DNA of 63,896 nt, the filler included, from Dugesia japonica (lineage: Eukaryota), in the NCBI GenBank assembly GCA_001938525.1. It is 6 parts of 6 records of this genome, joined end to end, with 100 filler letters (N's around TTAATTAATTAA, not from the genome) between each part and the next. Parts side by side here need not be neighbours in the genome. Positions count along the whole stretch, not along the records: positions 23,281 to 33,734 come from MQRL01635365.1; 5 more parts are not named here. One strand, written 5' to 3'. Under the pieces are notes generated by a model. That model searched no databases. It was not told where the DNA came from and saw nothing but the letters and a program-made list of their open reading frames with translations. Positions 7,582 to 48,456 of the stretch are shown here, piece by piece (position 1 is the first letter of the stretch; each line of letters starts with the position of its first letter). The position numbers and the translations under genes were made by a program.

Positions 7582-7764
7582 ATGGCCGGGGAATTAAAGA
7601 CGACCTTACGTTATATTCGGAAGCAAAGGATGGACGCACGCCTAAAGCAGTTGATAGCCCACCGATTGTCGAATGGTAAAATCGAACATCCCAACGAAAC
7701 CAATCTCCAGTGTTTCGTTGAGATGTTCCCACTAGATTGTAAAGTGGATATGGATGAGGAATAA
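7582..7764 (+). CDS. LTR cassette A, 60-aa protein of unknown function
   Basis: AG 2 nt before ATG, AATAAA at the stop; homolog at 31242-31424 shares IAH.L..G.IEHP.ETNL.CFVEMFPL. Confidence 0.7.
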   Translation: MAGELKTTLRYIRKQRMDARLKQLIAHRLSNGKIEHPNETNLQCFVEMFPLDCKVDMDEE

Positions 7765-7978
7765 ACACCCGCTCTAATTTATGGGCCAACAGTTCTTATG
7801 AAATAACCAAAAAAAAGAATATATTGTTTTTATTTGTGTTTAATTCTTATGAAATAAACTCTAAATATTGTTTTTAATCGTGAATAATTCTTAGGAGATA
7901 AATCCTAAATATTATTATTTTATACATTTTGGTCTTTAAATAAAACCTTNCTAGTTATTATTCTAGAATCAGCATCGA

Positions 7979-8406
7979 ATGGAATATAAGTGGGAAGTAA
8001 GCATTGACGTCNACTCGGGTAGAACGGTGTTTAAAAGTATCAAAACCCGTATAATCGCGACACTGGAGTTCTAGTAGAGCGCTCCAACATCTCTACTGAA
8101 CAAATAATAGACGAAAGGCGCTGGGATGCTACTGATAGGAGTGCATATTACAGTTGGTGTGGCCCTAGACGAGAAAGAGTGGCTTTTTCCCCAGCTCCAC
8201 TTTCTTTTGAGAGATCATCCGAGGTGCCTCAAGTCGAGCGCATATGGCATGATGGGCCTTCTTTAATCGACATCATCACAAACCGTCTACCCTCCACTAA
8301 CCAACTGACTTCGTTTATCCAGGATTATTTGTGGAGTACTCGTAATGGGGGGTCTAGCAGTAATATTGAAAATGCAGAAGAAGAAACCACAGTAGTTTCT
8401 ATGTAA
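7979..8406 (+). CDS. LTR cassette B, ~140-aa protein of unknown function
   Basis: Acceptor TTCTAG at 7961-7966, MEYKWEVSIDV...NPYNRDTGVLVERSN...SFIQDYLW; homolog at 31544-31945. Confidence 0.6.
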
Positions 8407-8565
8407 TGGGTTTAAGTAAAATAAATGTTTAACTGGGTGTTCGTGTCATCTGCCTTGCTGTTTTGTTGTCTATGAGACCATACTGTCTTCATTTATTAAA
8501 CTAAAAATATTCTAATACACANNNNNNNTGAGATCCTATTATTTTTTATTGTATTTGTATTTTAG

Positions 8566-8924
8566 TGCATTCATCCTTGAATAGATCGCAGGCCCCGAAT
8601 AAAAAACTACGCAAAACCAGTGAGGATATAGAGCTCACGTTGGATTTATATAGGCTCGCTAAACGGCGATGGGAGGCTGAGACGGCCGCAACTGAGGCCA
8701 AAATAAGGCACTATAAACGGAAATGTCTATCCTTTAAATCAGAAGTAGAAGCGACCCAGAATCAAGAGCGGGTGTGGAAATCCCAATTCGAATCCTTTAC
8801 TGACATCATCAAGTCTTATCAAGAACGTGAAAATAAATTAATAGAGAATATATTGAAATTGAAGACTGATATACCATTGGCCCTACTTTTGATTGATAAA
8901 GGTACCCAGATTAACCGTTCCTGA
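8566..8924 (+). CDS. LTR cassette C, ~119-aa coiled-coil protein with C-terminal LC8-type motif; no genomic ATG (AG|TG)
   Basis: Open frame from TTTTAG|TG CAT TCA to stop, AATAAA at 8955; homologs at 23281-23480 and 32091-32449. Confidence 0.7.
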
Positions 8925-9043
8925 GTTTTCGTGTTTCAATTTTTGATTGAATTGAATAAATTTGTTATTATTTGTATCTTCTCTAATCTACTTCTTCGAT
9001 TTTATTTATGGAGGTGCCTACTTAAACTGTAATTTTTCTTTAG

Positions 9044-9224
9044 TGCCACGAATTGTTAGATTTGTTAGGTAGATTTCCCAAAGCAGTATATAGCCGACCT
9101 GTCAAGCCAAATGGGAAACCCTGCTTGGGTACAGTGGGACGACAACGACGACATAGCCTCGTTCAATTTTTTGGAGTCCGACACAAACCAGTGGTTAGAT
9201 CCTGATGTATTGGAAGACCTATAA
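9044..9224 (+). pseudogene. LTR cassette D, internally deleted
   Basis: TTTAG|TG CCA CGA ATT start joined directly to KQYIADLSSQMGNPAWVQW...LEDL*; about 200 bp missing relative to 23595-23956. Confidence 0.7.
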
Positions 9225-9500
9225 TTTGTAATGTTAATAGATGTTTTTGATAACTTTTGGTTACTTTTTGATCTATGTCTATAAGGGAAATTAATGAACC
9301 CAAAGTAAAGGTGTACGAGTGTGAACCCCCCGTAAAGGTTGAAGGTCAACCGCTCTGCACTGAATATCCAACTGAGGGGCATTGGATTTAAATTCTTGAA
9401 CGGGTCTCCCTGAGAGCTGTTTTTCCCCAGCCTTTGTTTTCATTACCAACTCAGGTGGGACCTCAACAGAATTATCATTATAATCATATAATATTCAGTA

Positions 9501-18659: not shown

Positions 18660-18900
18660 TACAATTACAATTATTACGAGAGGAATTGGTGGACCATTGT
18701 TCGCATTCCAGATTTCATTTAAATAATAGCTTCGATGAAAATGTTTTTTTATTTCTATTTTGGTAAATATTTAAATTTTCGACTATTGTCTTCTTTAGGT
18801 TTATATCTTCTGAAGAAGACAATAGTAAAAAATTCGAATATCTACCAAAAAAGAAATAAAACAACATTTTGGTCGAAGCTATTTTTTTAATGAAAAAAAT
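18660..18900. repeat. Palindromic dispersed repeat with degenerate hammerhead cores (related pieces at ~17495, 19695, 44635, 53690, 56840, 62930)
   Basis: Shared AATAATTGTTGGAC..ACCATTGATCG...GCTTCGATCAAAA block; inverted arms around GTCTTC...GAAGAC. Confidence 0.75.
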
Positions 18901-19961: not shown

Positions 19962-21386
19962 AGTAGATGGTTTAGAGCGCATGGGGCCACCCTATCCCAC
20001 GGAGAAAATTTTTACTGGCCCTGATTTTTAGCGTTTTATTGGTTGCACACACGTTTTTAGGGTTTTTGATTGACCTAAATTTTAAGGTCAAGTGGCCCCG
20101 ATTTTAAACGTTTCGATTGCTTAAAATTTTTAAGGTCAAGGTTAACTGGCCTCAATTTTTGATGAATGTTCAGATGAAGTCATCTTAGAGTTTTAAGGTC
20201 AAGGTAATATTTTTTTTGTTTAAATTAAGTGAAATTAATGATTTTTGTTTGTTTAAATTAATTAATTTTTACGATTGGTTTAAATGTACGGATTTTTTGA
20301 GGTTTTAATTTAAATTAAGTTATATAATGATTTTTATGGATTTTTCATAGAAAATCGATGGTAAAACTTATTTTGTTTAAAATTTAAAATTTTGAAGTAT
20401 AAATTTTAATCGCTCTGGTCAATATTAACATTAGAGGTTTCTCAGACAATATTAATAATAATATATTTATTTATTTAATTGTATCGCTATTAAATCTTTA
20501 TCAATCTTAATGGTTCTCCTAAGCCCTGGTTTTGAGGTATAGGTCACTAACTTCTTTGCTGAATTACATATTCTCAAGTTAATTCGTTTCTTCAAATTTT
20601 CAACTGATTTGCCATACAAGCTGTTTTTCATCAGCTTATAGTAATTTTTATTCAATTCATTCACACTTTCAGCCTTTAATTTGGTGTTTTCATCGATGTA
20701 TTGCTTGAAAATATGATCTTGTGGAAATTTAACTGTCTTATGAACATTTGTAACTTGCACACCTAATTGCAAGTACATCTGCAGTAATCCCCAGTGAACT
20801 ACGTAATTGAACTTTGAATAATGAGTCAACATTAATTTCTTGACCGTGCATCCTGGAGCATATTGATATTCGGCTGCAATGGGTAAGTCACTAAGATAAT
20901 CATGAAGTTCATTAGAAATCTCAATGTCAACTTCTAGTGTGTATCCATATTGTAACGACTCGAGATCTGCATATTTACATTTTTCTAAAACTTCTTCTAA
21001 TCCACAATATACTCATTCAAAATCTTTGTATGGTAACTTCTGGCTCAAAGCCCAACCCTACAGATTATTTGTATCGATGTATAACAACTCTCTGTTTTCA
21101 TCTGAAATAACATGATGTTTGTTGACAAAGGTGAGCCCACCTCTAATCACACCTTCGAAAAAAGTGTACATGTCGTTATCAGTTAAAAGCTCGATGGGTT
21201 CATTTAAAGTCATCAAAGCAGATGCCCAGCTCATACCTGGAATGCCAAAGAAATTTAAGGGTTCAAGACGGTTGTGAGCTAATGACTTGGCTCGGAATTG
21301 CTGCAAAAAGTCAGCTTGGAGAAAGACGTCCAACTTCATGTACACTATGACGTAGTGCACTATCCATCTACTACTATCCATCTACT
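19962..21386 (-). mobile_element. Internally deleted Polinton/Maverick
   Basis: Termini AGTAGATGG...CCATCTACT, flanks GAGCAA/GAGCGA (6-bp TSD, 1 mismatch), pPolB fragment inside. Confidence 0.85.
20467..21345 (-). pseudogene. Protein-primed family B DNA polymerase fragment
   Basis: GVIRGGLT, LLYIDTNNL*GWALSQKLPY, YTLEVDIE, YYKLMKNSLYGKSVEN motifs with stops. Confidence 0.9.
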
Positions 21387-21929
21387 GAGCGACGCCGGTC
21401 AAATTCGATGTTAGCACAGAAAATCTTGACGGTCATTCAACTCAAGGAGTTAAGAAATATATTTATTATGAGCAGTTTTTATTGTTGGTTTATTATTGTT
21501 TNNNNGTTTATTATTGTTTATTATTCAAATTTTAAATAACATTTGTTAATTTTTGATTTTTAATTAAAGTTCTGTAATGTATAAATTAATATTTAACTAC
21601 CACGAAATCTTTCAATATTTCGAATTTCAGGAATTTTGGTAAATTCCTCTTATATAAAGTCTATATTATAACATCTATATTATAACATATACATTATAAC
21701 GTCTAGAACACATTAAACAGTTTTTTTATAAATTTATTAAACTTTTTTACCTCTCACAGTTGTTACAAAAACAACTATTAGCCAAAACTCTTTTTGCCAA
21801 CAATATTGTTTATTATCATAACCTAACCTAGAGAAAATTAGAAAAAAAGAAATAAAAGAAAAATAACAAAAATGTCAACAAAATAAATTTTCCCGTTGGA
21901 TGGGGGCTGGGAATGTCTTTGTTACAATG

Positions 21930-22200
21930 CGTCACTATCTACTTACTCAAGTGGTCTTCTGTTTTGTAGCATTCAAGGTCAATTCTATCTCCTTTTTATA
22001 ATATCTCCTTTATTTAAGTGTCACATGTACCATATCTCACAATGTTCTAAACTACCTCTTGATTTTTTCATTTGTGTTATAGTGAAATGGACTCAAAAAC
22101 TTGAGGGAGATTCCATGTTCAGTTGCAAAATCTTTCATTGGTCTAGACTCAAATTCTCTTCCACAATCAACTCTAATTTCTCTCGGACACCAGAACTTCT
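21930..22200 (-). pseudogene. Gypsy-type integrase core fragment
   Basis: CPREIRVDCGREFES..MKDFATEHGISLKFLSPFH..TNEKIKR*FRTL. Confidence 0.75.
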
Positions 22201-22290
22201 GTAATTTATAAACTAACATTTAATTACCGCGAAATTTTTCAATATCTCAAATTTCAAGAATTTTGGTAAAATCCACTATTATAATGTTTA

Positions 22291-23280: not shown

Positions 23281-24203
23281 CGCACGACCAAGAAAGAATT
23301 TGGAAATCGCAGGTAGAGTCGTTCGCCAAGATCATCCGGTCCAGCCATGACCGTGAAAAAAAACTGGTCAAAGGTATCCTGCATCTTAAGGAAAGATCCT
23401 ACTTCGAACCTTTCATGGTTGATAAGAGCACACAGACAAAATCTATATCGCGTGACTCAACTTTCTGTTTCTGGAAATAAAAAATCGAGTGTTGTAATCT
23501 TTGCNTTAGCGTGTATNACCTAAATTTTGATTAGACGAGTTCGATATCGATAATATTAATTATTTCTTCCCTATTATTAATCTTAATTATTTAGTGCCAC
23601 GAATTGTATTTCCAACAAGTTTACGGAGGTGTCACCGAATTATGCGTCGCTAGTTGTTAGAAGGACATTTAAAACGTAAGACCAAACGGGCCCTTCTAAG
23701 ACATCTCACCCAGCGGGATCGATTAATAAAAAAATTAGATTTATTGGTTAAAAAACAGAATGATTTGGCTGCACAAACCAAACAAATGTTACAACGAAAG
23801 GTAGATTTCTTAAAGCAATATATAGCAGACCTGTCAAGCCAATTGGGAAACCCTGTCTGGGTACAGTGGAATGACAGTGATGACATAGCTGCGTTTGACT
23901 TTTTGGAGACTGACACAAACCAGTGGTTAGATCCTGGTGTGTTGGAAGACCTATAATTTGTAATGTTAATAGATATTTTTTGATAACTTTTGGCTAATTT
24001 TTTATCAATGTCTATAAGGGCAAATAATGAACCCAAATTAAAGGTGTACGAGTGTGAACCTCCCGTAAAGGTTAAAGGTCAACCACTCTGTACTGAATAT
24101 CCTACTGAGGGGAGTTGGATTTAAATTCTTGAACGGATCTCCCCGAGGGCTGTTTTTTCACAGCCCCTTGTTTTCTTTTACCAACTCAGGTGTGGCCCCA
24201 ACA
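23281..24203 (+). mobile_element. Gene-bearing giant LTR, copy 2 (3' part; cassette C end, cassette D with nonsense codon, terminal region)
   Basis: ...MVDKSTQTK..., ATTTAG|TG CCA CGA ATT at 23595, terminus GGCCCCAACA. Confidence 0.8.
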
Positions 24204-25248: not shown

Positions 25249-26156
25249 TGTTGGGGTGAAACAACCAGTTATCTAAAAGGAAAAAGAAGACAGAAAATGA
25301 AATTTACAAAATAACACAAAAAGAGCCAAAAATAGAAACATCTGAAGAATAATTAAATCAAACGCAATCATGTTAATTAAAGAAAAAATCAAATTTATAT
25401 TATAAAAACAAACAAATTTGTTATTTCAAAATAATTAATTAGGAAAGAAATAGTAATTAATTTCATTGAAAAATAAAGGAAAATTAGACCAAAATCAGTT
25501 GTTCATGAACAATACCACTCTGGTTAATCCCAGAATGTTGAGGTAAGAAAAATTGAAAAAAAGTGTTATCTGGTCAATGGGATTTTGTAATTGGAAAACT
25601 TTATTATCATCAGAGGAACTATCACATGGGTTGGAAAATTGGGCCAATGAGGGTCCTAAAAACAAAAAAAAGAAAGCACCAAATCTCACCTGATGGTCTA
25701 AAAATAACGGCGGGTGGTGAAACTCTGCAAAAAATCTAAAAATTGGCACCAACGCCAATGAGAATCAAGGATTTCAAAAATATATATCCAATAGTAATGA
25801 TGCCGGGTTTCATCGGAAAACCATATAAAAGGCACAATGATTTAGTAGAAAAATAATAAAAAATTTAATTTTTCACCACAGCTCAAGTATTGTAGAACTA
25901 CCACTTGTGAGCAAATTACTTGAAGTAACCACGTATTAATTTTCAAGAAACTTGTTGGATTATTGGAATTAGGCCAAGTAACACTATCATTAGTTTGACC
26001 AGACTTAATTTTATAAAAAAGGAAATTAGAAAAGGAGTATCATCGATCAATTGTTGGGAATTCGTCTTCACCAAAAGAAATAGTCAAGCCGTTGCAGAAA
26101 TCCTATAGATTTTGATAAATTTAAAAAGTAATTTTGTTGTTATAATTTATATCATA
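25249..26156 (+). mobile_element. 5' part (U3-like) of a diverged LTR of the same family
   Basis: Starts TGTTGGGGTGAAACAACCAGT; patchy similarity to 28589-29150 (GGGCCAAT..TCCTAAAAA); TATAAAA near 25824. Confidence 0.65.
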
Positions 26157-26495
26157 CACGCTACTCCATTCCATTACCAACCTCCAGCTCCCCCACCAGT
26201 AGTTCAGGCCTTTATATATATATAATATATACCCATAATAAAATATATTATTACCGTAAATGAACTCTTTATTCTTTTCTATTTAAAAATGTTTTATTAA
26301 ATACCGATGATGAATGAGTAAAATGAGTGAATTTATTCATATTAGAGATGTCAATCCATGATAGATTATTATTAATTACCATTCCGCTTATTATTAAGGT
26401 TGAATATAAATGGTGAAAATTGAAGCCAAATAACAAGAAATTTATTTTTTCAACAAATATATTACCTACTTCGGGAATCCAATAATNTCTCAGCA

Positions 26496-27043
26496 ATGGA
26501 TGGATTGTATCTCGTCCAACAAACCAGAGATAAAGTTATCAAATGCACCACTTGCAAACAAGAAGCTCTATTACTGCAAGGAATAGAGAAATTACCAAGG
26601 AAAATATTCCATCACCCAAATTGCTCAAACCAATCAACGAGGAAGAAATACAAACAACAGCATGCAGAATCGAATGGAATATGTCACGTATCCGAATAGA
26701 AATGGCAGCTGAATTACAAATCAATAGACTGCATAATATCCTAAAGACAAGTCAGGAAAATATCAAGCAACTGATAAAACAAACAGTCGCTGAGAAAGGT
26801 ACTGAGTTAATCACGTCATACGAATTATACCAAAGATCATGTAAACTAGTAGAACCTCAAGTGAAATATGAGCAAGAATGGGCATTAATCGATAATAATT
26901 GTGTTATCTGCTTAGAAGGAATCATCGAGGTTGTATTCCTGCCATGCGGACATTTTAAGACCTGCTATAAGTGCGCTGTAAATCTAAATGAATGCCTTGT
27001 GTGCCGGAAGGTAATCGAACGTAGGGTATTGGGAATAAAATAA
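26496..27043 (+). pseudogene. IAP-like gene (degenerate BIR-like Zn motif + C-terminal C3HC4 RING), one frameshift near 26625; true start probably upstream
   Basis: AMDGLYL...DKVIKCTTC-x18-HHPNC then, in the shifted frame, CVICLEGIIEVVFLPCGHFKTCYKCAVNLNECLVCRKVI. Confidence 0.75.
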
Positions 27044-27156
27044 ACTTAAAATAAACTTTTAGTAAATAAACTTAAAATGTAAATAATGTATAATTATCTA
27101 TATATAACTGTCAAAATAATGGTATAACAAAATAACCACTTTCTCTAATTTTAGAA

Positions 27157-28328
27157 ATGAACAACGAAAACTTAATCACCCATCTCCGCAACGAGATTCA
27201 AATATTGCAAATTCAAACTCGAACCCTTACCACTATATCTGAAGTCCTAAAATGGAAACTGGAGTCCAAAATAGATGCACTGTCCAACTTTCAATTACAA
27301 AAATACAACAGTGANNNNNNNNNNNNNNNNNNNNNNNNNNNNNNNNNNNNNNNNNNNNNNNNNNNNNNNNNNNNNNNNNNNNNNNNNNNNNNNNNATAAA
27401 AAGCAACATCGATGCCAACAGAGCAAAAATCAACGCCATTAAACAGGCTCGGATTTGGAAAAGTAAATACGAGGAAGTTGAACCCAAAAGAAAAGAGGTA
27501 GAGAACCAATTATCCATCGAACAAAAAAATAGTCAAATCCTTAGGATGGAATTGTTCAACATGCAGTTTGAGAAAAGTCATCTCGCTACTGAAAATCAAC
27601 TTCTGATAAGTTTGGCAAATCGAGAGGGGGTGAAGGCTGGCATCGATAAACTATCTCTGGAATTCGAGAGCATAATTCAGGATTATCAACAAAAAAATGA
27701 GTTTTTACAACAATACATAGAAGCCTTGGAACAGGAGATTCTTGAACTAAGTACACTCTGCCGAGAAAAAGAAAATGAGATCGCAGAAAAACAACAACAC
27801 TTAATTGAAACATTCTCCGAAATTAAGAAACTTCTGAAATCTTATACAATTCGCCAACCTATCTCCCACCCAATAATGTTAGCAACTCCTCTCCAGCCAA
27901 GTGGTCTAACCACCTTCAATTCTCCCAAATCAACCTTAAACCATGCTGCTCCTGAATGGCAACCAACAATCTCAGGCCTATCAAGACAATCCACCCCATT
28001 AATATTTCAAGATCTCATAGTAGCTCCAGTTAAAACTAGGATACCCGAGTGGATAAATAAAATAATCGATTAGGCTTCCTACATAACTCCAACATCCTCC
28101 ACAATTCCCACCCAACATAGAAAACCGGTCCCATTGGTAATTCAAGAACCTCAAAGCATTTGTCTCAGTTCTGTAAAACTCAGTCAGATACCCAGTAAAA
28201 CCTCAGTAATCGACAACAATCAATTTAAAAGAAACCTATCCCAATCAATAGTAACCGAAATGCTACGGAAATATGGCTCTGATATACAACCGAACAACCA
28301 GAACAACCTAGTAGATGAAGTCGACTAG
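27157..28328 (+). pseudogene. Long coiled-coil protein with P/S/T-rich tail (gap inside; one in-frame TAG at 28071-28073)
   Basis: CTAAT..TTTTAG|AA ATG; ORFs 27546-28073 and 28134-28328 are in one frame; AATAAA at 28349. Confidence 0.6.
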
Positions 28329-28549
28329 AACGATCTAGGACCGATGTAAATAAACTGTAAATAATAACTAAATGATTCAATGAATTAACAAACTCTGAAT
28401 GTATCAACGTACACTGTATTTAAATGTATATCGTAGAACAAGTTTTATGTATGCGTCATGGGATAACATGTAATGACCTTAAAATTTTGCCTTGTCTGTT
28501 AATTTTCATTAGGGTTGAGGGGTTTTCTGCAACAGGGNGGAATTACGGC

Positions 28550-28588
28550 AAATTCCGGGACGGAATTTAAACAAGACGGAGAGCGATT
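28550..28588 (+). promoter_or_regulatory. Gypsy-type 3' hairpin and polypurine tract upstream of a 3' LTR
   Basis: AAATTCCG-GGA-CGGAATTT perfect hairpin, then AAGACGGAGAG, then TGTTGGGG. Confidence 0.65.
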
Positions 28589-31241
28589 TGTTGGGGTGAA
28601 ACACCCAGTAGAATGAGAAATCAAAGGGAGTCAATAAACATTCACCATCAAAACAAAAATAGTGTCACGGGGAGGAAGTAGAAAATAAAACAAGAAGAAT
28701 CGGGATCACATTGATAAACGAGAATAGAAAGACTCAAAGGATTAATGGTATTAATTATATAATCGGAAGAATTAATAAAATTAATAAAGAAAATGGCTAA
28801 CGAAAAAGAAAATAATTACAAAAAATAACAATTAATTTAAACGAAAAAAATTAATTAAAATTGAGACAAAATCCGTTTTAACCGAATAACTTCGCTCAAG
28901 GAAATCGGAAAGAATTCGGACAAAAAAATATGAAAAGAAAACAACAAGATGCATTGAAAATGCTAAAAGACGAAAACTTACCACCATTCCGAGGGTTGCT
29001 GCAGGGTCCTGAAGATCGGGCCAATAAGAATCCTAAAAATAAAAATAAAACAAAGACACAATTTTCAGGTGTCTCTCTAAAAATAGCTGCCAATTGTGGC
29101 ACCAAAACTTGAAGAAAATTGTAAAAATAGTTGTTTTTTCTGCTAAAAACAAGGGTCCTTTTATAGGATTTGACTTACACTCCGACTTCTTCTAGATTTG
29201 CTGATTATTTTTAGAGCAGCTTTTTTTTTGATTTCATTGGTTCCATCGTCAATTTTCTACAACTCACGAAAACAAATTTTACACCGATCCTCAACATACA
29301 ACTCAAAAGAATTTACTAATCAATTACCAGACTCGCATTAAGTTACAAGAAAATATTATCTGTCAAGAAGGATTCACTTTCAGGAGGAAACTTTTTAGTA
29401 ATTTCTAAATAATTGAATATCAATTAATCTTATTTCAAGGATAAGTGAAGTAATCAGCAGAACCTAGACAAGAAAAATTAGTTCTCCGAGGAAACCGTTC
29501 TTATCAGTTACTACCGATTGCCAGCACTGTTGCAGAGACCCTCTAACTAATATTGAAAAGTAAAATATTATTTTTATTTATGTTAAAAGTTGTAATATTA
29601 TCAAATATGGAATATTATGTAGCTTAATAAATGATGTCATGATAAAAAATCTTAATTTGTTATATTTTCTCCTTTAAGATTGTTGATCTATAATAGATAA
29701 ATGATTAATCATTTTGTATGCAAATTAATTAAATAGAAAATTCCTTGAAAAATCAGTCTTAATTAATTAATTGATTTTGGAGTTAAAGTAGCTAATAGAA
29801 ATGTCATGAATTTACCTTACTTAAAAATAAAATTTTATTTTGCCCAAAGTGAAAGAACAGAAAATATGCACTATGAATAAGTGCAATACTTTTTCGATAA
29901 TCTTATAACAACCACCGATTAGAAATTTCATGAAAAGAAGAAGTTTTCAATGTTATTTATTTCTTATGTTAAAATCCCATATTCATTAGTTAACTGATTA
30001 ACTGCATCAATTAGATAGGCTACTGTTAACTTGGAGTGGGAATAGAATGACGAATAAACATCTCTGACTGTTAAATGATATTATACAGTAGATTCCGTGT
30101 TAGTTTTCATTAAATTAAAGGAAAAAGAGTTAATATTTAAATATGTTAAAGCTTAGTTAAACTGAGATCGGAACACACATATATATATATTAAAAAAATA
30201 CATGAACTAACCGATTCATCCATCCTGTTTTCATATTAATAATTTTTATAACAACACAAAATATAATATCCAAAATTGTAACTCAAGATAAATAAAACTC
30301 CAACAATTTATTTAGCAAAATTTATTGAACGATATTTACCTATTTCGATATTTAGCCATGATCATAAATCCGCAGGTTGTGATGATAGATGGCGGCGAAC
30401 GTGCTTAACTCAGGTTCTGACCGACTGTGTTTTCTGACATGGAATGGCCACAAGTAGTGCAGTAGAATGAGAATCCCTATCGCATTTTCCAATTTTCTAA
30501 AAGACAGTAAGCCATCACCTAAAATTATGACTGAAAAGTGATACTATTAGACAATGCTTGTGTTAATGCTTACTCTAACCAGACATACACACTCGAGAAT
30601 AATGACACACAACCCGACACTATTGCAAATCAAATCAATCCGTTAGTAAGGGGGATAATCACCAAGCAACGGTGATGCGTAAAAGTTTAAAAGTAAAAAG
30701 ATATATAAAAATACAAATTTTATAATTATTATAATTAATGCGATTTATAACCTTTAATGGTTCAAATCATCATTATTACAACTAGCAGTAACGGCCTTAA
30801 TTTTTTTATATGCAATAAACACCATATAACCCACATTACTATTAGTAATTTATCTAGAGCAACGCCACTCCCCTGACATAATATTCTATTAAATAGCGCT
30901 TTAAGATTATGATATTTATTTACCACAATGGTGCCATTCCTAGTGTCAAAATTAATATTTTTGGTTGTTACACACTTCGGTAATTAATTTTTCTCTAAGA
31001 TATTATTATGGCCAGAATAATTCGGTTTCTGTTGATTAATGTCGTGGTATTACTTAGTAGAATTTTTGCCAGTTATGCCATCCCAATTGATTTTAGTACA
31101 ATCAAAATTAATATCCTTCCCTTAAGAGTTATCCTGTTAATACTGTATACCCCGCAGGGTTATCAAGAGTCAGTGTCTATTATTCAGCTTAGGGGATTAA
31201 GTTATCAATTTAAGATGGTGGTTAATGATTTCATCTTTAGC

Positions 31242-31424
31242 ATGCCAGACAAATTATATCATACCCTGCGTTGGATTGACAAGCAGCGACGCCTCAGTCG
31301 GACGAAGCAGCCAATAGCTCACCTACTGATCAAAGGGGAAATAGAGCATCCAGACGAAACGAACCTGAGTTGCTTTGTAGAAATGTTTCCCTTAATGACA
31401 GAAACCGGTTTAGACGCAGAATGA
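31242..31424 (+). CDS. LTR cassette A, 60 aa
   Basis: CTTTAG|C ATG; MPDKLYHTLRWIDKQR...GEIEHPDETNLSCFVEMFPL; AATAAA at 31453. Confidence 0.7.
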   Translation: MPDKLYHTLRWIDKQRRLSRTKQPIAHLLIKGEIEHPDETNLSCFVEMFPLMTETGLDAE

Positions 31425-31543
31425 TTCGCGTTGTTAGTAGTGTTGTCATGAAAATAAATTATATGCGCTATCTTGTCGACGTTTTATAATTGTTTATGGA
31501 AATTTTGGTTTTATTCTAATCATTCTCATACTTTAATTAGGAG

Positions 31544-31945
31544 ATGGAATCTATTTGGGAATGCATAGTGGATTGACGCACCCGTAGAATAATTTTCCGG
31601 CGGCACCACAATCCCTACAATCGAGATGCCGGGATCTTAGTAGATAGATCAAATCTACCCCCCATTGAAGCAGCCGTTGCTCGTATCCAGAGCTTTGGAG
31701 AACGACTTAACTATCGCCAGTGGAATGGTCCTGAGCGTAACCACGCTACTCCATTCCATTACCAATCTCCAGCTCCCCCACCAGTAGTTCAGGCCTTCAT
31801 AGCTAATCTGCTCTGGGGCGTTAGGGAACCTTCCGGGGTGGAGGATGCGGAAAATACAGCTCCCCTGATACTACAAATCCCGACTCTTGATGTTATCCTG
31901 ATTTCAAATTTTGTGTTTCTTTTAATAAATAAGTGTCTTAAGTAA
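31544..31945 (+). pseudogene. LTR cassette B (one in-frame TGA)
   Basis: CTAAT...TTAATTAG|GAG ATG; MESIWECIVD*RTRRIIFRRHHNPYNRDAGILVDRSN...AFIANLLW. Confidence 0.65.
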
Positions 31946-32090
31946 TATTAACATACTCTTTAATCCATTGAGAAAATTGTCTTTAATAGTGTTATTCCAT
32001 GTTTTATGTTTTAAGTAAAATTGAGTAGATATTAGTAAATCAGTCATCAAGTCGATGAAGGGAAATGATTTTTATGATATTTTCTTTTAG

Positions 32091-32449
32091 TGCATTCTTC
32101 GTTAAATCGCCCCCCAGCTCCAACCAAGAAAATCAGAGACACCAGTGAGGACCGCGAAATGACGTGGGACCTCTACTGACTGGCCAAACGACGTTGGGAG
32201 GCGGAAGTGGCTAATGCGAATAGTAAAGTCCTCCGTTATAAGAAAAAGTGTATTCTTTTTAAAAAGGAAGCGGAGGCCTCCCATTTACAGGAGCGCACTT
32301 GGAAAAAACAAGTGAAATCTTTCTCAGAGATTATCCGGTCCGGCCATGACCGAGAAAATAAACTGGTTAACGATATTTTGATTCTCTGGGAGAAAATCCC
32401 ACTCGAGCCGCTAATGGTCGACAAAAGTACTCAGACGAGCCGCTCTTAA
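32091..32449 (+). pseudogene. LTR cassette C (frameshift + TGA), ends MVDKSTQTSRS
   Basis: TTTTAG|TG CAT TCT TCG TTA AAT CGC; aligns to 8566-8924. Confidence 0.7.
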
Positions 32450-32568
32450 CTTGATATTTCATTATTGTTTGAATTAATAAAATATTCATTTGTATGAGAT
32501 TCTTCTGTTACTTGTTTTCTCGAGGCATAGATGAGGTATTCATTAATTTAATTGTACTTTTCCTTTAG

Positions 32569-32945
32569 TGTCTCGTATCGTGTTTCCGACTAGTTTGAGG
32601 AGGTGCCACCGTATTCTGCGCCGTCTATTATTAGAGCGACACTTAAAACGCAAATCAGAACAAGCTCTTCTTAAGCACCTTGACCAGAGAAATCAGCTCA
32701 TAAAAAAATTGGATTTGGTAGTCNNNNNNNNNNNNNNNNNNNNNNNNNNNNNNAAAGCCCTAGAGGCAGAGAACAGGAAGTTGCTGTTAAGAAAAATAGA
32801 CTTCCTAAAACAATACATCTCTGATCTTTCCCGGCAGATTGGGAACTCCGCTTGGATTCATTGGGGCGATGATGAAGATATCACCGCCTTCAATTTTACA
32901 GTAGATGACCCAGATCAATGTGCTAGTGTGCTAAACGATCTATAA
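32569..32945 (+). CDS. LTR cassette D, ~125-aa basic/coiled-coil protein; no genomic ATG (AG|TG)
   Basis: CTTTAG|TG TCT CGT ATC; RIVFPTSLRRCHRI...KIDFLKQYISDLS.Q.GN..W..W.D; AATAAA after the stop. Confidence 0.7.
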
Positions 32946-35336
32946 ATGTTATAATAATAAATGTTCCGAGGAGTATTGGTTTAATTTTTGTGTAATTAAG
33001 GGAAGTTTTTGAACCAAAATACAAAGGTTTATGGGTGTGCACCTCCCATTAAGAGTGAGGTCAACCACCATGAACTGAATACCTACCCTAGGGGCGGTAG
33101 GGTAAATTCTTGAAAGAGTTCCCCTGCGGGCTGTTTTTCCCCAGCCGCATTAATTTTTCATTCAGCTCAGGTGGGACACCAACACTACTATTAATTGGAT
33201 CGGAAGTTTTGATTGGGTTACTCGCGCTTCTGAGACTATCACACTACAGACATTCCCAGAATATCCAAAATATATATTTTGGTGGCAAATACCCACAGAG
33301 ATAAGCACAATTAAACCTACTACTAACATAATAACATCAACCCCCATAAAGTTAAATATAACGATTAACTCGAGTTTAAACGACAATCATAAGATAAAAA
33401 TTAATACAGAAAGTACATATTTAAAATACATTATAAGAAATCGAAATTCAGACCTAAATAAATATTATAAAAATTATCAATACTATAAGAATAAGATTCT
33501 ACAACTTTGGGGCACTACAAAAAATCCAGAACCTGAAAGCAAAATAATAAAAAGAATTTCCTTATAATTTTGGGAACAGGTGTAATACTCTTCCTCGTAG
33601 CGTTTATAGTATCAATTTATCAAATTCACAAACGCTATAATTGGAAGAGACAGCGTTATCGGAGTCGCAATACCCCAAACTCACCGGACTATGTTCAATG
33701 GACACAAGTATAAACACTTTCCAAAATGTATATTNNNNNNNNNNNNNNNNNNNNNNNNNNNNNNNNNNNNNNNNNNNNTTAATTAATTAANNNNNNNNNN
33801 NNNNNNNNNNNNNNNNNNNNNNNNNNNNNNNNNNTTAGTGAATCGGTTATTAAGTTCTTATTGGTGTAAATGTTTGAAATATTTATATAAAGTTTAATTT
33901 GATAAAAACAATTCAATGTTAAATTGTTATAAGCAGATTTTCATATATTTTCTGGAAATATATATAAATTGAGAAAATTTGGATATTAATAAAATAGACA
34001 AACGAAAATTAAATATTATTTTTTTTTAAAAATAGCTTTTGCTGTTTTTTATGAAATATCTCCATCTTATGTCATTTGCGGATTTACAAGTAAATTTTCA
34101 GAAGTTTCGAAAGTGTTTGTCTGTTGAACCAATAGAAATCAGTTTATTTCACAATTATATTATCAGTCGAAATATTTTGTAATTACATTAGTATTCATCT
34201 TTTGGAAAACAAGTTAGCTATTTAAATTTTTATCTATATATTTATATTTATTATATTAAATTTAAGTACTTCGCTTACTTTTTAAGTCGCTATTTATTTT
34301 TCTTAATAATTTTTATTTTATATTATTTATTATAATTTATTAATTTTCAAGTTTTGCATTTATCGTTCAACTATTGGAAAAATAAAAATAAATTGCATAA
34401 CTAAAAAAATTTCTAAATTTTATTTTTTTAATATTATTTAATTATCTTTTTAAAAGAAATGTTTAAAAAATAAAAATTATTTTTAAAATTTCTAAAAGTA
34501 TATATAAATTTTGATTTTCAGAAATTATAGAAATTCTTTTTAAGAAAATTTAATATTAATAAGATTTAGTTATTAATAATAAACAATAAATAACCGAAAA
34601 TTAAAACGTAAAAACTTTTTTCCAAAATTAAATAAATGAATTAAATGACATATAACAAAAAAATCAGAAAAAAATTTTTTCTGTTATTGTAATACATTGG
34701 GAATATAAATCAAAATTTTATTTCTTTGATATATTCAATTAACAGGCAATTATCTCAGCATTATTTAAATAAAGCGTCTAATATGAAATTTGGCTGTACT
34801 TGAAATTCTGAGCAGAATTTTTAATAAATTATCAATTATCTTTTGGTATCAAAAGGAAAAATTAATAAAATTCTAAAATTTACATTTTATAAAATTTATT
34901 GGATTTCAATTGTCTTTAATTTTAAAAAATAATTAAATTAACTAAATGATTTNNNNNNNNNNNNNNNNNNNNNNNNNNNNNNNNNNNNNNNNNNNNNNNN
35001 NNNNNNNNNNNNNNNNNNNNNNNNNNNNNNNNNNNNNNNNNNNNNNNNNNNNNNNNNNNNNNNNNNNNNNNNNNNNNNNNNNNNNNNNNNNNNNNNNNNN
35101 NNNNNNNNNNNNNNNNNNNNNNNNNNNNNNNNNNNNNNNNNNNNNNNNNNNNNNNNNNNNNNNNNNNNNNNNNNNNNNNNNNNNNNNNNNNNNNNNNNNN
35201 NNNNNNNNNNNNNNNNNNNNNNNNNNNNNNNNNNNATCATTCTGTTATTTATATTCACCATATTTAAAAATGCAATTCGTGTGTAATTTATTAGAATACA
35301 ATTTTATTGAATTATTTTTAGTTCTGGATACTAATT

Positions 35337-37700: not shown

Positions 37701-39560
37701 GGGCGGCTAACTTTGGTTTACATAAAATCTACTTATTCGTTCAAATGCGTCACGATTGATTTAGGACCTTTTGTTTAGTTCATCGAACACTGCAGTTCAG
37801 AAAATAGACAATAAACATACTGTCAAATCCAAGGGTTTTTGAACAACATGCGTAATTATTAACCATATTTATTAATATAAGTCCGCAGACTACAGAAGAT
37901 AAAACAGATAACATAAATGAGAAGCCTGTGTTTGCATCTTTCTGACCAAGGAATCATAATTAAGGGTATAATTGGGAAAAGATAATAACAAAGAATCATC
38001 AATATGAGTATCGGTGAGAAAAGAACGTTGTTTGATCTTTGTTAACTTTAAATACAAAAATGCTGATTCATAAAGGTATGTTGATCCAAAACAAAAATAA
38101 ATATATTCGCTACATTTGGTGATATTAGGATATTTCTCGCGGTTAACGTATTTCCAAAAATCCTCTTCAAATTTTCTGGCTTGTTAGATTAAACCAGTTT
38201 GTTAAATTATAATTCCACTTTTAAATGCCTTTTGCTCCATATGAAATATGTTTGAAAGTTTTTGTCTAATGCGTTTCACACTTAAATCTGTTGTAAAAAG
38301 AAAATATATATATTTCACAATTTCTTTAATTTCTTCAAAATCTTGAAATCGTTTCTCAAAATCTTCATTTACTTTTTGGATTTCTGCGAGGTATTTGTGA
38401 ATATTATAATTAATATTTTTATGTTTTTGTAAATGGTCTGACATATTTGGAAAATGATTCAGATTATTTTATTGCAGATGTTCTATTAGTAAAATAAATT
38501 TTATTTTATATGCATCTGTGCAAGTGATTATTTTAATTGCTGTTTAATTTTTACCTTGTAATTCTAACTTTAAATAACTTAACATTGAAGTCAAATCGCT
38601 AATAAAAGCTAAGTCACTAAGTCAAGTTTCATCATATAAATTTTCATATTTTCTATCTTGCTCGTGGACATAATCTATTATTTCAGGCAATAAATCACGA
38701 AAACGTTACAGAAATTTACCTCTACTTAGCCATCTTACATCACTATGTAGTAATAATTTAGGTTGGCACACATCGAACTGCATTTGGAAGAGACACCGTT
38801 TAAGTGAACTTCCTCTAATTGAATAAACAATTTTAAATGCTATGTCCATAACTTATTTTGTGTTAAAACTCTTGCTGGTGAATTATGCAATGGTAACTCT
38901 AAGAAACTGGGAAGTCGTCTTCATTTTGACATAGGGCTATATATTCATTTATGCGACCTATCATTGCAGCGGCGCCAACCGTTGTTATTGAAATTAATTT
39001 AAAAAGTGGTACTTTTAAATCATTGAGTAAGTTTTTAAAAGCTTTGAATATATTTACGCTAACTTTGAATGATGCAGTAGTTACTGCTAGTGACTTCAAC
39101 ATTGACTTTTGAAAACATTTCTTTGATTTGTTAATTGCGTTTTAAGATCATTAACTATATGTTTTTTTAATTCGGTATTTTGTGAATAATCTGTTTGATA
39201 CTTGTTATATAAAGTTAAAAATGTAGCTTCATATTACCCTTTTTAGCAATGGCTATCAAGCTAAGACATTAACAACAACATTTATTATTTACCACTGTAA
39301 AAAAAGTAATAAAATGCCGATTCTTTATTGAAATGATAATTTTTCGATTTTTTTGGTTTACTACTCATGTTCATGGGTATACTAAAATGCAAAATAAATA
39401 CTTTTGACAATTTTTTTTCCTTACTTATCTGAAATGAATTAAATATTGAAAATAAATAATGAATATTGAATTAAATACTTTCCAAGAAAATTAAAAACTA
39501 ATAAACTGCTGTCATTAACTTCGTTAACGGCTTCAGCTTAGACGCCTGTGCCACAATTTA
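37700..39560 (-). mobile_element. Degenerate hAT transposon (GTF2IRD2/SPIN-like transposase)
   Basis: LISITTVGAAAMIG, HSDVRWLSRGKFL, FEKRFQDF, FGSTYLYESAF. Confidence 0.85.
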
Positions 39561-43915: not shown

Positions 43916-46900
43916 TTTTCGTACTTCGTATTTCTCATGTTTTTTATGTATTGTAATTTGGTGGAATTGAAACCAATACAAGAAATCAAAACAGCTAAGG
44001 AAATGTTTGCAGAGATCTATGTGTACATATATGTTCTCACATTTACTATTGAAGAAATTCGACAAGTTAGATGTTTTCATTTTTCTAAATTATTATGGAT
44101 ATTGTTTAATATAAATAACATTACTTTAAATATTTTTTAATTTTCATAAGTAGACTTTTTGAAATTTCTAACACAAATAAGATAGGAACGTTGAAAATTA
44201 TTTTCTTTCGTCTTTATTAAATAGTATATATTGTATAGTGTATCAGAAATTACAAATTCTACACTGGATTTTCGTTTCTAAGTTAAATGACAATGTTTTA
44301 AATGATTTCTAAAATATCTTTTGGAAATATAATTCATTTAATTATTCTTTCTAATATTATCAAATGTTATAATTATAAATATACTAATGGCTAGGTTGAT
44401 TTTGTTGTTTATGAAGGAATATGTGATTATTAAAATAAATATAACTCTAAATATGTGTAACTGTAAAAGGAAATATTTTTTTTGATATTTTGTAATTAAT
44501 TCTAACTAGAAAGGTGAAATAATTTTGGTAGAATAATTTTCTCCCAATATCTAATGAAAATTCATTTCTTCCAATTTCTGTATATCACATTATATAAATT
44601 AATTTATTGTGATATATCCTTTTATAATTGCAATCATTGAGAGAATAATTGTTGGACATAACCATTGATCGTTTTTCAGATTTCATTAAAATAAAATCTT
44701 CAATTAAAATTTGTTTTTTTGGTTTTTGATAACATTTCTATATGAAGACATATATCCTATTAAAGCATGTTTTACATGACTTTTAAATATTTTTAATTTT
44801 ATTTTTATACGCTTATTGGTTTACCATATAAATTTTTCAATTTTACAAAAATTTTTGGATTGTCCGACTTGGTCAAATTAGTATTTTTTTAATATAATTT
44901 TCTATTTTTTATATATTATTGATATAGTTGATGTGAATTTTCTCTTCATGTTTTTATTTTTACTGCTTTTCTTCTACTTTCTGATTTTTAAATTTCTTAT
45001 TAATTTATATATTCGATGTGTTTTGCTTTAATTTTTGTATCGGCATATTTATATATTTGTTCCGATTTTATTTGTACATCTGTTATTTGTGCAATAATAA
45101 TTTTTTTATTTAATAATATTTACTGTTAAATAATCTTATTTGTACATATCTTTATGTATATTTTCATGTGATTACAAAATTTCGATGTCGATTTTATTTT
45201 TTCATTTAAATTTTCTCAATCGAGGTAAATAAATATATGTATATATAAAGTTGCTTTTTTCTTATAAAAATGAAACTGAACCACGTTATACACAAGCAGC
45301 AAATGCTAAGTTTATTTTTAGCTTATTTTATCTTATTTTAATTAAATTCAAATTTTTTCATATTTTTTGTTTTGTTATTAGATACTTGATCAAGAGCTAA
45401 CTAGTATAAAATATAAATTCCAAGAATACTTTTCTCGAATCTGGAACAAATTGGACATAGTTATTATCGCTTTTTTTATTTCAAGTACCGTTACGAGATT
45501 TACAATTCCTAGTGAAAATTTCATGTTATGTCGCTGTTTATTTGCAATGACATTGAGCATGTTCTTTCTCAGATCAATGCAGTTTTATTTTGTAAACAAA
45601 TCTATTGGACCTAAAGTTATCATGATTCGAGATATGGTTGAGTTATAATTTTTCTCAAAAATTTATTTAGATTATTCTTTTTTATAGCTTCGAGATATTT
45701 TGTTTTTTTTAAGCATATTTGTGATTTTTATTTTGGCATATGGAACTTTATCTCATTCTTTGAGATTTCCCAATAGCAAATTGGACTTAGCACTTTTTAA
45801 GGATATTGCCTACATTCCGTATTTTCAGACATATGGAGAATTAATGCTGGACCAATTTGAAAGTATTTATCTTAAATAAATTTTTTATATTTAAATAATT
45901 TCTGATATTGAATTTGTTATTGAATTTGTTATTGAATTTGTTATTGAATTTGTTATTGAATTTTTTATTGAATTGAATTTGTAAAGGACCGTTTTGAGTT
46001 TGTAAATTTTATCTCAAATTCTGTTGTAAGTAATAATGACGACTTTATGGTGTCCTTTGATATTTCTAGCTTATTCACTATTGTTCCTTTGCTGGAAACA
46101 ATAGATCTTTGTTGTGATATATAGGAAGTAATGTGAGTGATCAATCTAAAATGAATATATCTGCTTTCGTTAATTTTTCACTTTTCCAACGACTAATGTT
46201 TCGTTTCTTTTAACAATGAATTATATTAACAGATTGATGGAGTAGCTATGGGTTCTCTTTTAGCTCCGAAATTAGCGTGGATTTTCTTGAATAAGCATGA
46301 AGAACGAATGAACTTACTTACCAAAAATTTGTTGACGATGTTTTTCTTATTTTTGTTAATCCTGAACATGTTCTGCTTTCCCAGAGTTTTATGAATTCGT
46401 TATATCCTAATATTCGGTTTACTGTAGAGGAAGAAAGAAATGGTATTTTGCCTTTTTTGGATCAACGCATTATGAGACTGAAATCTACAGAAAGAAAAGT
46501 GATACTGGCTTGTATGTTACCCCAAATAATTTTTGTAATCCTGCTTATAAAAAGAACATGATAAAGTATTTAATGCTTTGTTCATGGTCATTGTTCTCAA
46601 TTTATTCCAAATCCATTAAAAGTATTGAACATTTATTTAAGTTACTGCAAGCAAATGGATATAGTAAACAATTTTTAAGTTCATTGACTTCGTTGACAAT
46701 TGACAAAATATTGGTTGGTAATAATATTGGTTTTGATAAAAAGATTGAAACTGTGTTGAATAATCCTAAACCCTATAGCACTTTATCTAATTGGATTGGG
46801 CCATTTGTTTTATCGATCGCTGAAGGTTTTAAAAAGTTAAAGAATTCGATTTTGAAAGCTGCTAAGGATTTTCTTTTATTGAAAATTGTTTCTAATATTG

Positions 46901-48456
46901 TTAAACGCTTTGTTAATAAATCCCATACACCAATTGGTTTGTGTTCTAACCTTGTTCATCAAATTATATGTAATGTATGTGAGGCCACATACATCAAAGA
47001 GACTGCCCGTCATCTCTGTACAAGGGTTCAAGAGCATAATAGTTTTGGTGGTGGTAGTAATATTGCTGAGCATAAAAATAAAAATATAAGTAATTGTAAT
47101 GCGAATGCCGAAATTTTAAAAGTTTGTCTAAGTAATTTTAAAATGATTGGGAGAGAGTTTTGTGGGAGGGGTTAATGATTAATTTAGGATTAATTAAGCA
47201 TTAATTAATTACGCATTAATTTATAGACAGCTCTTTCGACTAAATTGATTAAATTTTTTTAGATACAAAAATATTTTTTAATTTTTAAAATTTTAATATA
47301 TTTTCATGTTTTTATAAGTTCTGTATTTTATTTTTCAAAATAATTTTCAATTTTATTATTTCATAGGCTTTGAAAATTTTTTAATACACTTTAAAATTAA
47401 AAAATTTTAAATATTTTCGAAAAACGTTCTTTTTTTAGTCTCCTTGATTTTTATAGGTTTAAAATAGGAATTTTAATAAAATATTATTATAGAAGATATT
47501 TTTTTAGAAAATAAATAAATTTTTTAATTGAAAAATTGTTTAAATTTATAAAATTAGGAATTATAGCAAATCTTATATTCAGTATAATTGCTTGAATCTT
47601 TGTTTAAATAATACAGACTGAGTAAACTCATCTCTTCTATTTTTCTGATGAAAAATTCGTCAAAATAGATAATAATAAAATTTTATTTTAAATGGCGTTA
47701 CTTATTTTATGTTAAACATTTNNNNNNNNNNNNNNNNNNNNNNNNNNNNNNNNNNNNNNNNNNNNNNNNNNNNNNNNNNNNNNNNNNNNNNNNNNNNNNN
47801 NNNNNNNNNNNNNNNNNNNNNNNNNNNNNNNNNNNNNNNNNNNNNNNNNNNNNNNNNNNNNNNNNNNNNNATTATTATTAATATTATTATTANNNNNNNN
47901 NNNNNNNNNNNNNNNNNNNNNNNNNNNNNNNNNNNNNNNNNNNNNNNNNNNNNNNNNNNNNNNNNNNNNNNNNNNNNNNNNNNNNNNNNNNNNNNNNNNN
48001 NNNNNNNNNNNNNNNNNNNNNNNNNNNNNNNNNNNNNNNNNNNNNNNNNNNNNNNNNNNNNNNNGCAGTATTTCTGTTATTGACAAATGTGTTGTTGATT
48101 AATTTGTTAATTGCAATGTTTGGGTGAGTGAAAAGTTTTCAGTGTTTATGTACTATGATGAATTTTACTAAAATAATATTACCTTATTANNNNNNNNNNN
48201 NNNNNNNNNNNNNNNNNNNNNNNNNNNNNNNNNNNNNNNNNNNNNNNNNNNNNNNNNNNNNNNNNNNNNNNNNNNNNNNNNNNNNNNNNNNNNNNNNNNN
48301 NNNNNNNNNNNNNNNNNNNNNNNNNNNNNNNNNNNNNNNNNNNNNNNNNNNNNNNNNNNNNNNNNNNNNNNNNNNNNNNNNNNNNNNNNNNNNNNNNNNN
48401 NNNNNNNNNNNNNNNNNNNNNNNNNNNNNNNNNNNNNNNNNNNNNNNNNNNNNNNN

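What the first reader, a model, noticed from the sequence alone, without database searches (positions are those of the whole stretch)
32420..32437. Dynein light chain (LC8) motif DKSTQT at the C-terminus of cassette C
Seen: DKSTQT at 32420 and 23421 with different codons, and DKGTQI at 8895, always just after a coiled coil. Known: K-x-T-Q-T is the canonical DYNLL/LC8-binding motif, and DKSTQT occurs in rabies virus P protein and in Bim. Inference: a retroelement accessory protein recruits LC8 for dimerisation, transport or apoptosis control, as viral proteins do.
Basis: partly seen in the sequence, partly recalled or inferred. Interest (0 to 1): 0.7.

Follow-up and report, generated by a model that had tools for sequence, protein, structure and literature searches.

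The report
Retrotransposon LTR protein with LC8-binding tail
A giant jumping gene in this animal carries four small protein genes inside its terminal repeat, and one of them ends in a near-ideal docking site for the host hub protein LC8, as several virus proteins do, although the copy flagged here is broken.

Summary
The motif is real: DKSTQT at 32420 and 23421, DKGTQI at 8895, in three paralogous copies of one small gene (C). C lies inside a 4,596-bp long terminal repeat (28589-33184, TGTTG...CAACA) of a high-copy, Burro-like giant LTR retroelement, with three other small genes (A, B, D). Between LTR copies silent sites are saturated while the proteins stay 44-82% identical (C pN/pS 0.27-0.37), so these are selected protein genes. 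The motif is a conserved island (4 of 6 columns invariant; flanks 0 of 14) after a predicted ~90-residue coiled coil. Two copies read VDKSTQT, matching seven residues of a published 70 nM LC8 peptide. A folded complex with an LC8 dimer scored 0.84 against a best control of 0.17, possibly by likeness to solved complexes. Most likely LC8 clamps C into a parallel dimer; transport or apoptosis roles are unsupported. Caveats: the 32420 copy has an in-frame stop upstream of the motif; the three copies are not independent; RNA evidence is thin; the host (probably a planarian) is not established; the primary Burro paper was unavailable. No homologues were found, and our searches found no report of such LTR genes.

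The parts
28589..33184 (+). 4,596-bp LTR (copy 3), TGTTG...CAACA termini; probably a 3' LTR
   Evidence: the same start motif occurs at 9501 and 25249, the same end motif at 9468 and 24203; similarity between copies stops at the end motif. No target-site duplication.
32417..32437 (+). LC8-type motif VDKSTQT (positions -5 to +1), copy 3
   Evidence: contacts LC8 residues 59-73 in the model.
32091..32449 (+). Gene C exon, copy 3: basic coiled-coil protein, interrupted by an in-frame stop at 32177-32179; starts at a splice-acceptor-like site; AATAAA at 32476
31242..31424 (+). Gene A, copy 3 (60 aa, own ATG, no family match)
   Evidence: 58% identical to copy 1, pN/pS 0.36; no match in Pfam, PHROGs or the Atlas.
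31544..31945 (+). Gene B, copy 3 (own ATG, in-frame stop at 31574, divergent)
   Evidence: Core 44-50% identical to copy 1, pN/pS 0.51-0.56.
32569..32945 (+). Gene D exon, copy 3 (helical N-part, acidic C-part; 30 N inside)
   Evidence: 63% identical to copy 2, pN/pS 0.20.
29398..29439 (+). 42-nt GT..AG intron-like stretch in the LTR's 5' part, absent from some related contigs
   Evidence: Joint 29397/29440 in 2 contigs of run X2, depth 86; the kind of run is not on record.
28550..28588 (+). Family-conserved stretch just upstream of the LTR, with a purine-rich part (13 of 18 at 28567-28584): possible polypurine-tract region
   Evidence: Reads of related copies match 28550-28605 and then diverge (loose ends).
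26543..27043 (+). RING (C3HC4, IAP-type) ORF upstream of the LTR; probable 3' accessory gene of the internal region
   Evidence: PF13920, E 3e-14; no relatives found. Link to this LTR inferred from position.
27157..28073 (+). Long coiled-coil-like ORF (N gap inside); probable 3' accessory gene
   Evidence: no Pfam family above cut-off.
8566..8924 (+). Gene C exon, copy 1: open frame, no Met, motif IDKGTQI at 8892-8912
   Evidence: 59% identical to copy 3, pS 0.87, pN/pS 0.32.
7582..9468 (+). LTR copy 1, 3' part: A, B, C, internally deleted D, conserved non-coding tail, LTR end
   Evidence: No LTR start motif was found upstream of it.
23281..24203 (+). LTR copy 2, 3' part: tail of C with VDKSTQT (23418-23438), D (stop at 23651-23653), LTR end

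Best explanation
Gene C is one of four small accessory genes carried inside the LTR of a giant Gypsy-type (Burro-like) retroelement. It encodes a basic protein of about 120 aa: a long coiled coil, a proline-broken linker and a C-terminal LC8-binding motif. One host LC8 dimer binds the motifs of two C chains as beta-strands, clamping the end of a parallel coiled-coil dimer and stabilising it for a function useful to the element. Shown here: the motif, the LTR context, selection on the proteins and local conservation of the motif. Predicted: helix, flexible tail, LC8 complex. Inferred: expression by splicing from an upstream leader exon (C and D exons begin at ag|TG in 5 of 5 cases and C copy 1 has no Met), dimer clamping in vivo, Burro identity. 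The copy at 32420 is a decayed copy that preserves the motif.
For: LTR termini shared by several copies. High copy number: 5,291 contig pieces laid, summed depth about 3,900-94,500 over C against 40-90 in much of 29659-31198. Purifying selection: pS 0.85-0.88 against pN 0.23-0.33 for C. Motif 4 of 6 columns invariant against 0 of 11 in the linker and 0 of 3 in the tail. Positions fit published rules: D at -4, K at -3, TQT anchor (PMC6607443). Ac-VDKSTQTD binds at 0.07 uM against 5.6 uM without the Val (PMC3078936 Table 1); copies 2 and 3 have Val and copy 1 Ile at -5. Binders with a GTQI anchor (ICE1) and with Ser at +2 (SLC9A2, VP4) are listed in PMC6607443. [quoted passage not shown] Complex model: 0.84, best of 3 controls 0.17; the mark was reached by 51 of 78 solved complexes and 2 of 108 mismatched pairs; runs agree in at least 93% of contacts; partner pLDDT at least 68; interface is residues 43-54 of the 55-aa tail, the motif itself.
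Against: No binding was measured. The model pass may come from memory of solved LC8-peptide complexes, used a stand-in LC8 (87 of 89 residues as Drosophila LC8), and lies outside the tool's calibration (peptides, host with element). Good-looking motifs often fail: 7 of 19 PSSM-predicted peptides bound. No copy has the preferred P/D/E at +2. Only three copies were compared. The single-sequence model of copy 1 runs the helix through the motif. The family-depth peak lies at about 32333-32379, in the coiled coil, not on the motif, and motif columns did not appear in the truncated variant table (40 shown, 642 not). RNA is thin: 132, 13 and 12 reads in three runs, nearly all partial and mostly under 90% alike, on both strands, with no splice joint. 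No gag-pol is linked to the LTR in the window. The ArgRS tree placed the host gene with ladybird beetles (95/89) on a long branch, against a planarian host.
Confidence: 0.62

Rival explanations
1. C binds LC8 as a decoy or competitor, draining it from host complexes that restrain the element (piRNA-guided silencing or apoptosis control); thousands of LTR copies would give the dose.
For: LC8/Cut-up, bound through TQT motifs, is required for piRNA-guided transposon silencing in Drosophila (PMC7861614). Planarian LTR elements are PIWI targets (PMC8532177). Burro elements carry BIR, BCL2-like and RING domains (PMC6431247). The motif looks high-affinity.
Against: RNA levels are very low, and LC8 is abundant (recalled). 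The Panoramix complex was studied in Drosophila; no equivalent was shown for this host. Most of C's conservation lies in the coiled coil (18 of 35 columns), which a pure sink would not need.
Confidence: 0.13
2. C uses LC8 to link the element's particle or RNA to the dynein motor for transport to the nucleus.
For: LC8 was first described as a cargo adaptor; C is basic (net +7/+8) and could bind nucleic acid.
Against: The papers read treat LC8 as a dimerisation hub for partners unrelated to motors. Clients and dynein intermediate chain use the same groove (recalled). Nothing here links C to particles.
Confidence: 0.1
3. C is a real LTR protein but the motif is not an LC8 site in vivo; it is conserved for another partner, for structure or for an RNA signal.
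For: Three copies only; copy 1 deviates at -2 and +1; TQT-type false positives are common; copy-1 model is helical there.
Against: Codons vary freely under the motif (5 of 6 differ between copies 2 and 3), which argues against an RNA signal. The substitutions stay within residues seen in binders. Flanks are not conserved across all three copies.
Confidence: 0.12
4. The cassette is not an LTR but part of a Polinton or another DNA virus-like element.
For: A protein-primed PolB fragment (PF03175, E 1e-9) and an rve fragment lie at 20470-22219; arrays of small genes with their own poly(A) signals resemble DNA viruses.
Against: Those fragments are on the opposite strand and outside the repeat unit. 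The unit has TG...CA ends in direct orientation and a conserved upstream flank. No relative in viral contigs, PHROGs or BFVD.
Confidence: 0.06

Closest known systems
LC8/DYNLL clients with a K-x-T-Q-T motif beside a coiled coil (Bim, EML3, myosin Va; viral rabies P, Ebola VP35, HPIV3 P)
   Same: D-K-S-T-Q-T identical to Bim's site; Val at -5 as in the tightest tested peptide; motif next to an oligomerisation helix, as in VP35 and HPIV3 P.
   Different: Encoded by a retroelement LTR; about 120 aa, essentially coil plus motif; no sequence or fold relationship to these proteins; binding unmeasured.
Burro / GYPSM1 giant Gypsy LTR retrotransposons of planarians
   Same: Very long LTR, high copy number, AT-rich animal host, RING and Smc-like accessory coding next to the LTR, decayed copies (PMC6431247 section 7).
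   Different: The section read describes accessory domains in the internal region and says nothing of protein genes inside the LTR. No Burro sequence was available for comparison, and no gag-pol-env is linked in this window.
Retroviral accessory genes in or overlapping the LTR (MMTV sag, HIV nef, foamy virus tas/bet; recalled, no call)
   Same: Small regulatory genes at the 3' end, expressed by splicing, acting through host-binding short motifs.
   Different: Those are one or two genes in U3. Here four tandem genes fill the 3' 2 kb of a 4.6-kb LTR, each with its own acceptor-like site and, mostly, a poly(A)-like signal.

Membership tests
LC8-binding client (TQT motif) | Anchor T-Q-T or tolerated variant at -1..+1 | tested here: met
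   TQT in copies 2 and 3, TQI in copy 1; a TQI binder is listed in PMC6607443.
LC8-binding client (TQT motif) | Favourable flanks: polar -4, large basic -3, non-bulky -2, no internal Pro | tested here: met
   D, K, S/G in 3 of 3 copies; V/V/I at -5. +2 is S, K or N, not the preferred P/D/E.
LC8-binding client (TQT motif) | Motif in a disordered or extended segment | tested here: inconclusive
   Copy 3 tail pLDDT 53-63, outside the main helix; copy 1 single-sequence model helical through it.
LC8-binding client (TQT motif) | Motif conserved among homologues | tested here: met
   4 of 6 columns invariant in 3 copies against 0 of 14 flanking columns; only three copies, window chosen after seeing the data.
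LC8-binding client (TQT motif) | Measured binding to LC8 | not testable with these tools
   Only a model: 0.84 against best control 0.17.
LTR retrotransposon LTR | TG...CA termini with short inverted repeats, shared among copies | tested here: met
   TGTTG/CAACA at 28589 and 33184; 3 starts and 3 ends of this type.
LTR retrotransposon LTR | Paired direct LTRs with target-site duplication, PBS and PPT | tested here: inconclusive
   No near-identical partner LTR or TSD for 28589-33184; purine-rich conserved upstream flank present; no PBS-like start seen after the three ends.
Burro / GYPSM1 | Giant gag-env-pol polyprotein with MATH, BIR, BCL2-like, ankyrin domains | tested here: inconclusive
   Not present in the window; only a RING ORF and a coiled-coil ORF adjoin the LTR. 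No whole genome was held.
Burro / GYPSM1 | Sequence similarity to described Burro elements | not testable with these tools
   No Burro sequence was available; primary paper not held.
Burro / GYPSM1 | Planarian (Dugesiidae) host | tested here: inconclusive
   For: GC 13-36% per 2 kb; TRPM exon of TRPM2/8 type (E 3e-10, against 7e-3 for TRPM3), while insect channels are TRPM1/3-like (PMC7306681); ArgRS only 61-67% to most animal hits listed. Against: tree placement with ladybirds on a long branch, no triclad in the tree.

The most novel reading that the evidence does not exclude
The LTR of this giant retroelement is itself an undescribed four-gene expression unit, spread by every LTR copy. Its C protein is the first retrotransposon-encoded LC8 client, and it uses LC8 to blunt a host defence (piRNA-guided silencing or apoptosis). 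The LTR gene array alone is much more likely to be real and undescribed (about 0.6) than the counter-defence role.
Probability: 0.15. Interest if true: 0.85.

Novelty: new variant of a known kind. Interest (0 to 1): 0.6.

Why it matters
LTRs are normally annotated as non-coding regulatory DNA. Here a 4.6-kb LTR holds four protein genes kept under purifying selection while silent sites saturated, with no relatives in the databases searched. If C binds LC8, host-hub mimicry known from RNA viruses extends to a retrotransposon, and a hypothesis in print, that Burro-type elements meddle with host regulation (PMC6431247), gains a small, cheap, testable handle: a peptide, a known partner and a high-copy RNA target.

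Tried and rejected
Homologue searches for C found nothing usable: 8 candidates and none significant (lengths 64-207 only); phmmer on 1.84 billion representatives gave 1 hit, an 11-fold repeat protein judged a chance match; viral contigs 0 of 5 and 0 of 131 candidate stretches; the Atlas gave generic coiled coils for C and nothing for A; Pfam nothing above cut-off for A-D; PHROGs 1 weak match among 9 proteins; BFVD no match at E<=0.001; PDB sequences none for the 23-aa tail. The RING ORF had 16 candidates, none significant. The one metagenome scan went to finding an LC8, so metagenomes were not searched for C. No whole genome was held. No RNA holder was listed for 29000-32700; that is no evidence either way. 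No tRNA gene in the window. Earlier findings: 3 look-ups, all empty. A leader donor homologous between the LTR starts at 28589 and 25249 could not be fixed by alignment; 8 donor-like sites ending in A lie upstream of C. Completion of the start codon by the flatworm spliced leader's terminal AUG (recalled) was rejected, because it would be out of frame at the C acceptors. A paper search for a splice-made start codon in gypsy env gave no relevant listing. Treating 25249-33184 as one insertion was rejected: its two LTR starts are only about 62% alike.

Full report
Observation. Six-frame translation finds DKSTQT at 32420 and 23421 and DKGTQI at 8895, all on the + strand. The two DKSTQT copies differ in 5 of 6 codons. 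In 150 Markov simulations of the window DKSTQT never arose and DK.TQ[TIV] arose in 7; K.TQT alone averaged 0.57 per window. The three sites are equivalent positions of one paralogous gene, C, so they are one motif kept three times. The copy named in the finding has an in-frame stop at 32177-32179. Copy 2 is cut by an assembly gap. Copy 1 is open over 118 codons.

What C belongs to. The gene sits in a 4,596-bp unit, 28589-33184, that starts TGTTG and ends CAACA. The same start occurs at 9501 and 25249 and the same end at 9468 and 24203, and similarity between copies stops at the end motif. Copies are 61-68% alike in DNA, except the tails of copies 1 and 2 (88%). Laying one contig run (X2, kind not on record) on 28539-32723 at 80% likeness gave 5,291 pieces. 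Summed depth was 45,400 at the left end, about 3,900-94,500 over C and 40-90 in most bins of 29659-31198; this shows a large, diverged family but is no copy number. Reads of related copies match 28550-28605 and then diverge, so the flank left of the unit is element-internal, as expected of a 3' LTR; it has a purine-rich part. Further left lie a RING ORF (PF13920, E 3e-14) and a long coiled-coil-like ORF. There is no target-site duplication, partner LTR or linked gag-pol in the window. The PolB and rve fragments at 20470-22219 lie on the other strand and outside the unit. I read the unit as the LTR of a giant Gypsy-type element (about 0.85).

The LTR carries four genes. A, B, C and D follow one another in its last 2 kb. 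Between copies silent sites are saturated (pS 0.79-0.96 in the 7 distant pairs) while amino-acid identity stays 44-67%. pN/pS is 0.27-0.37 for C (3 pairs, bootstrap upper bounds 0.40-0.56), 0.20-0.24 for D (3 pairs), 0.36 for A (1 pair) and 0.51-0.56 for the B core (2 distant pairs; a third, near-identical pair was uninformative). A and B have their own ATG. C and D exons begin after a pyrimidine tract at ag|TG in 5 of 5 visible cases, and copy-1 C has no Met, so the start must come from an upstream exon; this is inferred and no such splice was seen. Of 11 ORF ends tested, 8 have AATAAA within 31 nt, 2 have AATAGA and 1 neither; AATAAA is common here (16 in the LTR), so this is weak. Each copy is damaged somewhere, as in old insertions.

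Expression. Three RNA runs (6-25% of each read) gave 12, 132 and 13 reads, nearly all partial and mostly under 90% alike. Run X10 covered C at 1-6x on both strands, with no splice joints. Related copies are transcribed a little; nothing shows that this copy is, or that C is translated.

The motif. In the 55-column three-way alignment 18 of 35 helix columns, 0 of 11 linker columns, 4 of 6 motif columns and 0 of 3 tail columns are invariant. AlphaFold with the three-row alignment gives a helix to residue 72 of 89 and a tail at pLDDT 53-63. The single-sequence model of copy 1 is helical throughout, which counts against a flexible tail there. The motif fits published rules at -4, -3, -2 and the anchor, but not at +2 (PMC6607443, passages). 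The same paper's table lists Bim's DKSTQT site (0.16 uM) and binders with GTQI and with Ser at +2, and reports that only 7 of 19 predicted peptides bound. PMC3078936 (passages with Table 1) measured 0.07 uM for Ac-VDKSTQTD against 5.6 uM without Val; copies 2 and 3 read VDKSTQT and copy 1 has Ile at -5. With an LC8 from a public metagenome contig (87 of 89 residues as Drosophila LC8), two LC8 chains and two 35-residue tails scored 0.84, best of 3 controls 0.17. The mark was reached by 51 of 78 solved complexes and 2 of 108 mismatched pairs; runs agree in at least 93% of contacts; partner pLDDT is at least 68; the interface is the motif in LC8's 59-73 groove. LC8-peptide complexes are solved, so the pass may reflect memory, and peptides lie outside the calibration. 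PMC12057147 (abstract, outline, passages) found that AlphaFold separates LC8 binders usefully but that two-client runs also score many non-binders well; it used another program.

Mechanism. The most likely role is the common one for LC8 clients with a motif beside a coiled coil: one LC8 dimer holds two tails in parallel and stabilises the dimer (viral cases in PMC8615749, passages). What the dimer does is not shown. A decoy role against silencing or apoptosis has context (PMC7861614 and PMC8532177, passages; Burro's BIR and BCL2-like domains) but low RNA speaks against a sink. Nothing supports dynein transport.

Host and family. The window is AT-rich. Its TRPM exon is of TRPM2/8 type, whereas insect channels are TRPM1/3-like (PMC7306681, passages, flatworms not sampled). 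Its ArgRS is at most 67% identical to the 120 hits listed of 1,436. A tree of 45 rows (44 of those 120 hits, chosen for named or top-ranking entries) put it with ladybirds at 95/89 on a 0.72 branch, with no triclad present. A planarian host with Burro-type elements is my inference (about 0.75), resting partly on recall. Membership of Burro could not be tested by sequence.

Novelty. No homologue of C was found. Searches for Burro, for ORFs within LTRs, for LC8 with retrotransposon or planarian and for DKSTQT listed no paper on LTR-encoded proteins of such elements or on a retrotransposon LC8 client; I judged these from listings. I read section 7 of PMC6431247 whole and passages of PMC11410931 and PMC13238120. 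The primary Burro paper was not held and no supplements were read; its extended data or Repbase may already draw these ORFs. Verdict: a real, selected, probably LC8-binding accessory protein in an unusual coding LTR; new variant of a known kind; interest 0.6.

Noticed in passing
window 12535-14300 (+): Host cytoplasmic arginyl-tRNA synthetase gene with short introns, on a very long branch.
   Followed up: partly
window 20470-21381 (-): Broken protein-primed DNA polymerase B (PF03175), Polinton/Maverick-like; rve integrase fragment at 22055-22219 (-).
   Followed up: partly
window 9501-10968 (+): Probable 1,468-bp solo LTR of a related family (TGTTGAGG...CCCCAACA), 64% alike to 63320-63643; only 3 flanking bases match on both sides, and the same 3-base match is seen for 25249/33184.
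   Followed up: partly
window 33185-33730 (+): Right of the LTR end, broken frames resemble a membrane glycoprotein (Thr/Ile-rich stretch, hydrophobic segment, basic tail); perhaps another element's gene into which the LTR inserted.
   Followed up: no
window 43916-45645 (+): Exons of a TRPM channel of TRPM2/8 type.
   Followed up: partly
window 3492-4678 (-) and 46301-47172 (+): Two Penelope-like (GIY-YIG-type, recalled) fragments, 72% alike in opposite orientation.
   Followed up: no
window 26157-26216: 60-bp piece 97% identical to gene B of the LTR (31742-31801), behind a different LTR start at 25249.
   Followed up: no
window 5549-6479 and 6565-8238: Near-identical duplications beside N gaps (95-98%), probably assembly artefacts.
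   Followed up: no
window 37893-39141 (-), 59254-59986 (-), 63616-63894 (-): Decayed DNA-transposase-like frames (hAT-like and Tc1-like by recall); several palindromic AT-rich repeats near 18713, 19322, 50061 and 53662.
   Followed up: no
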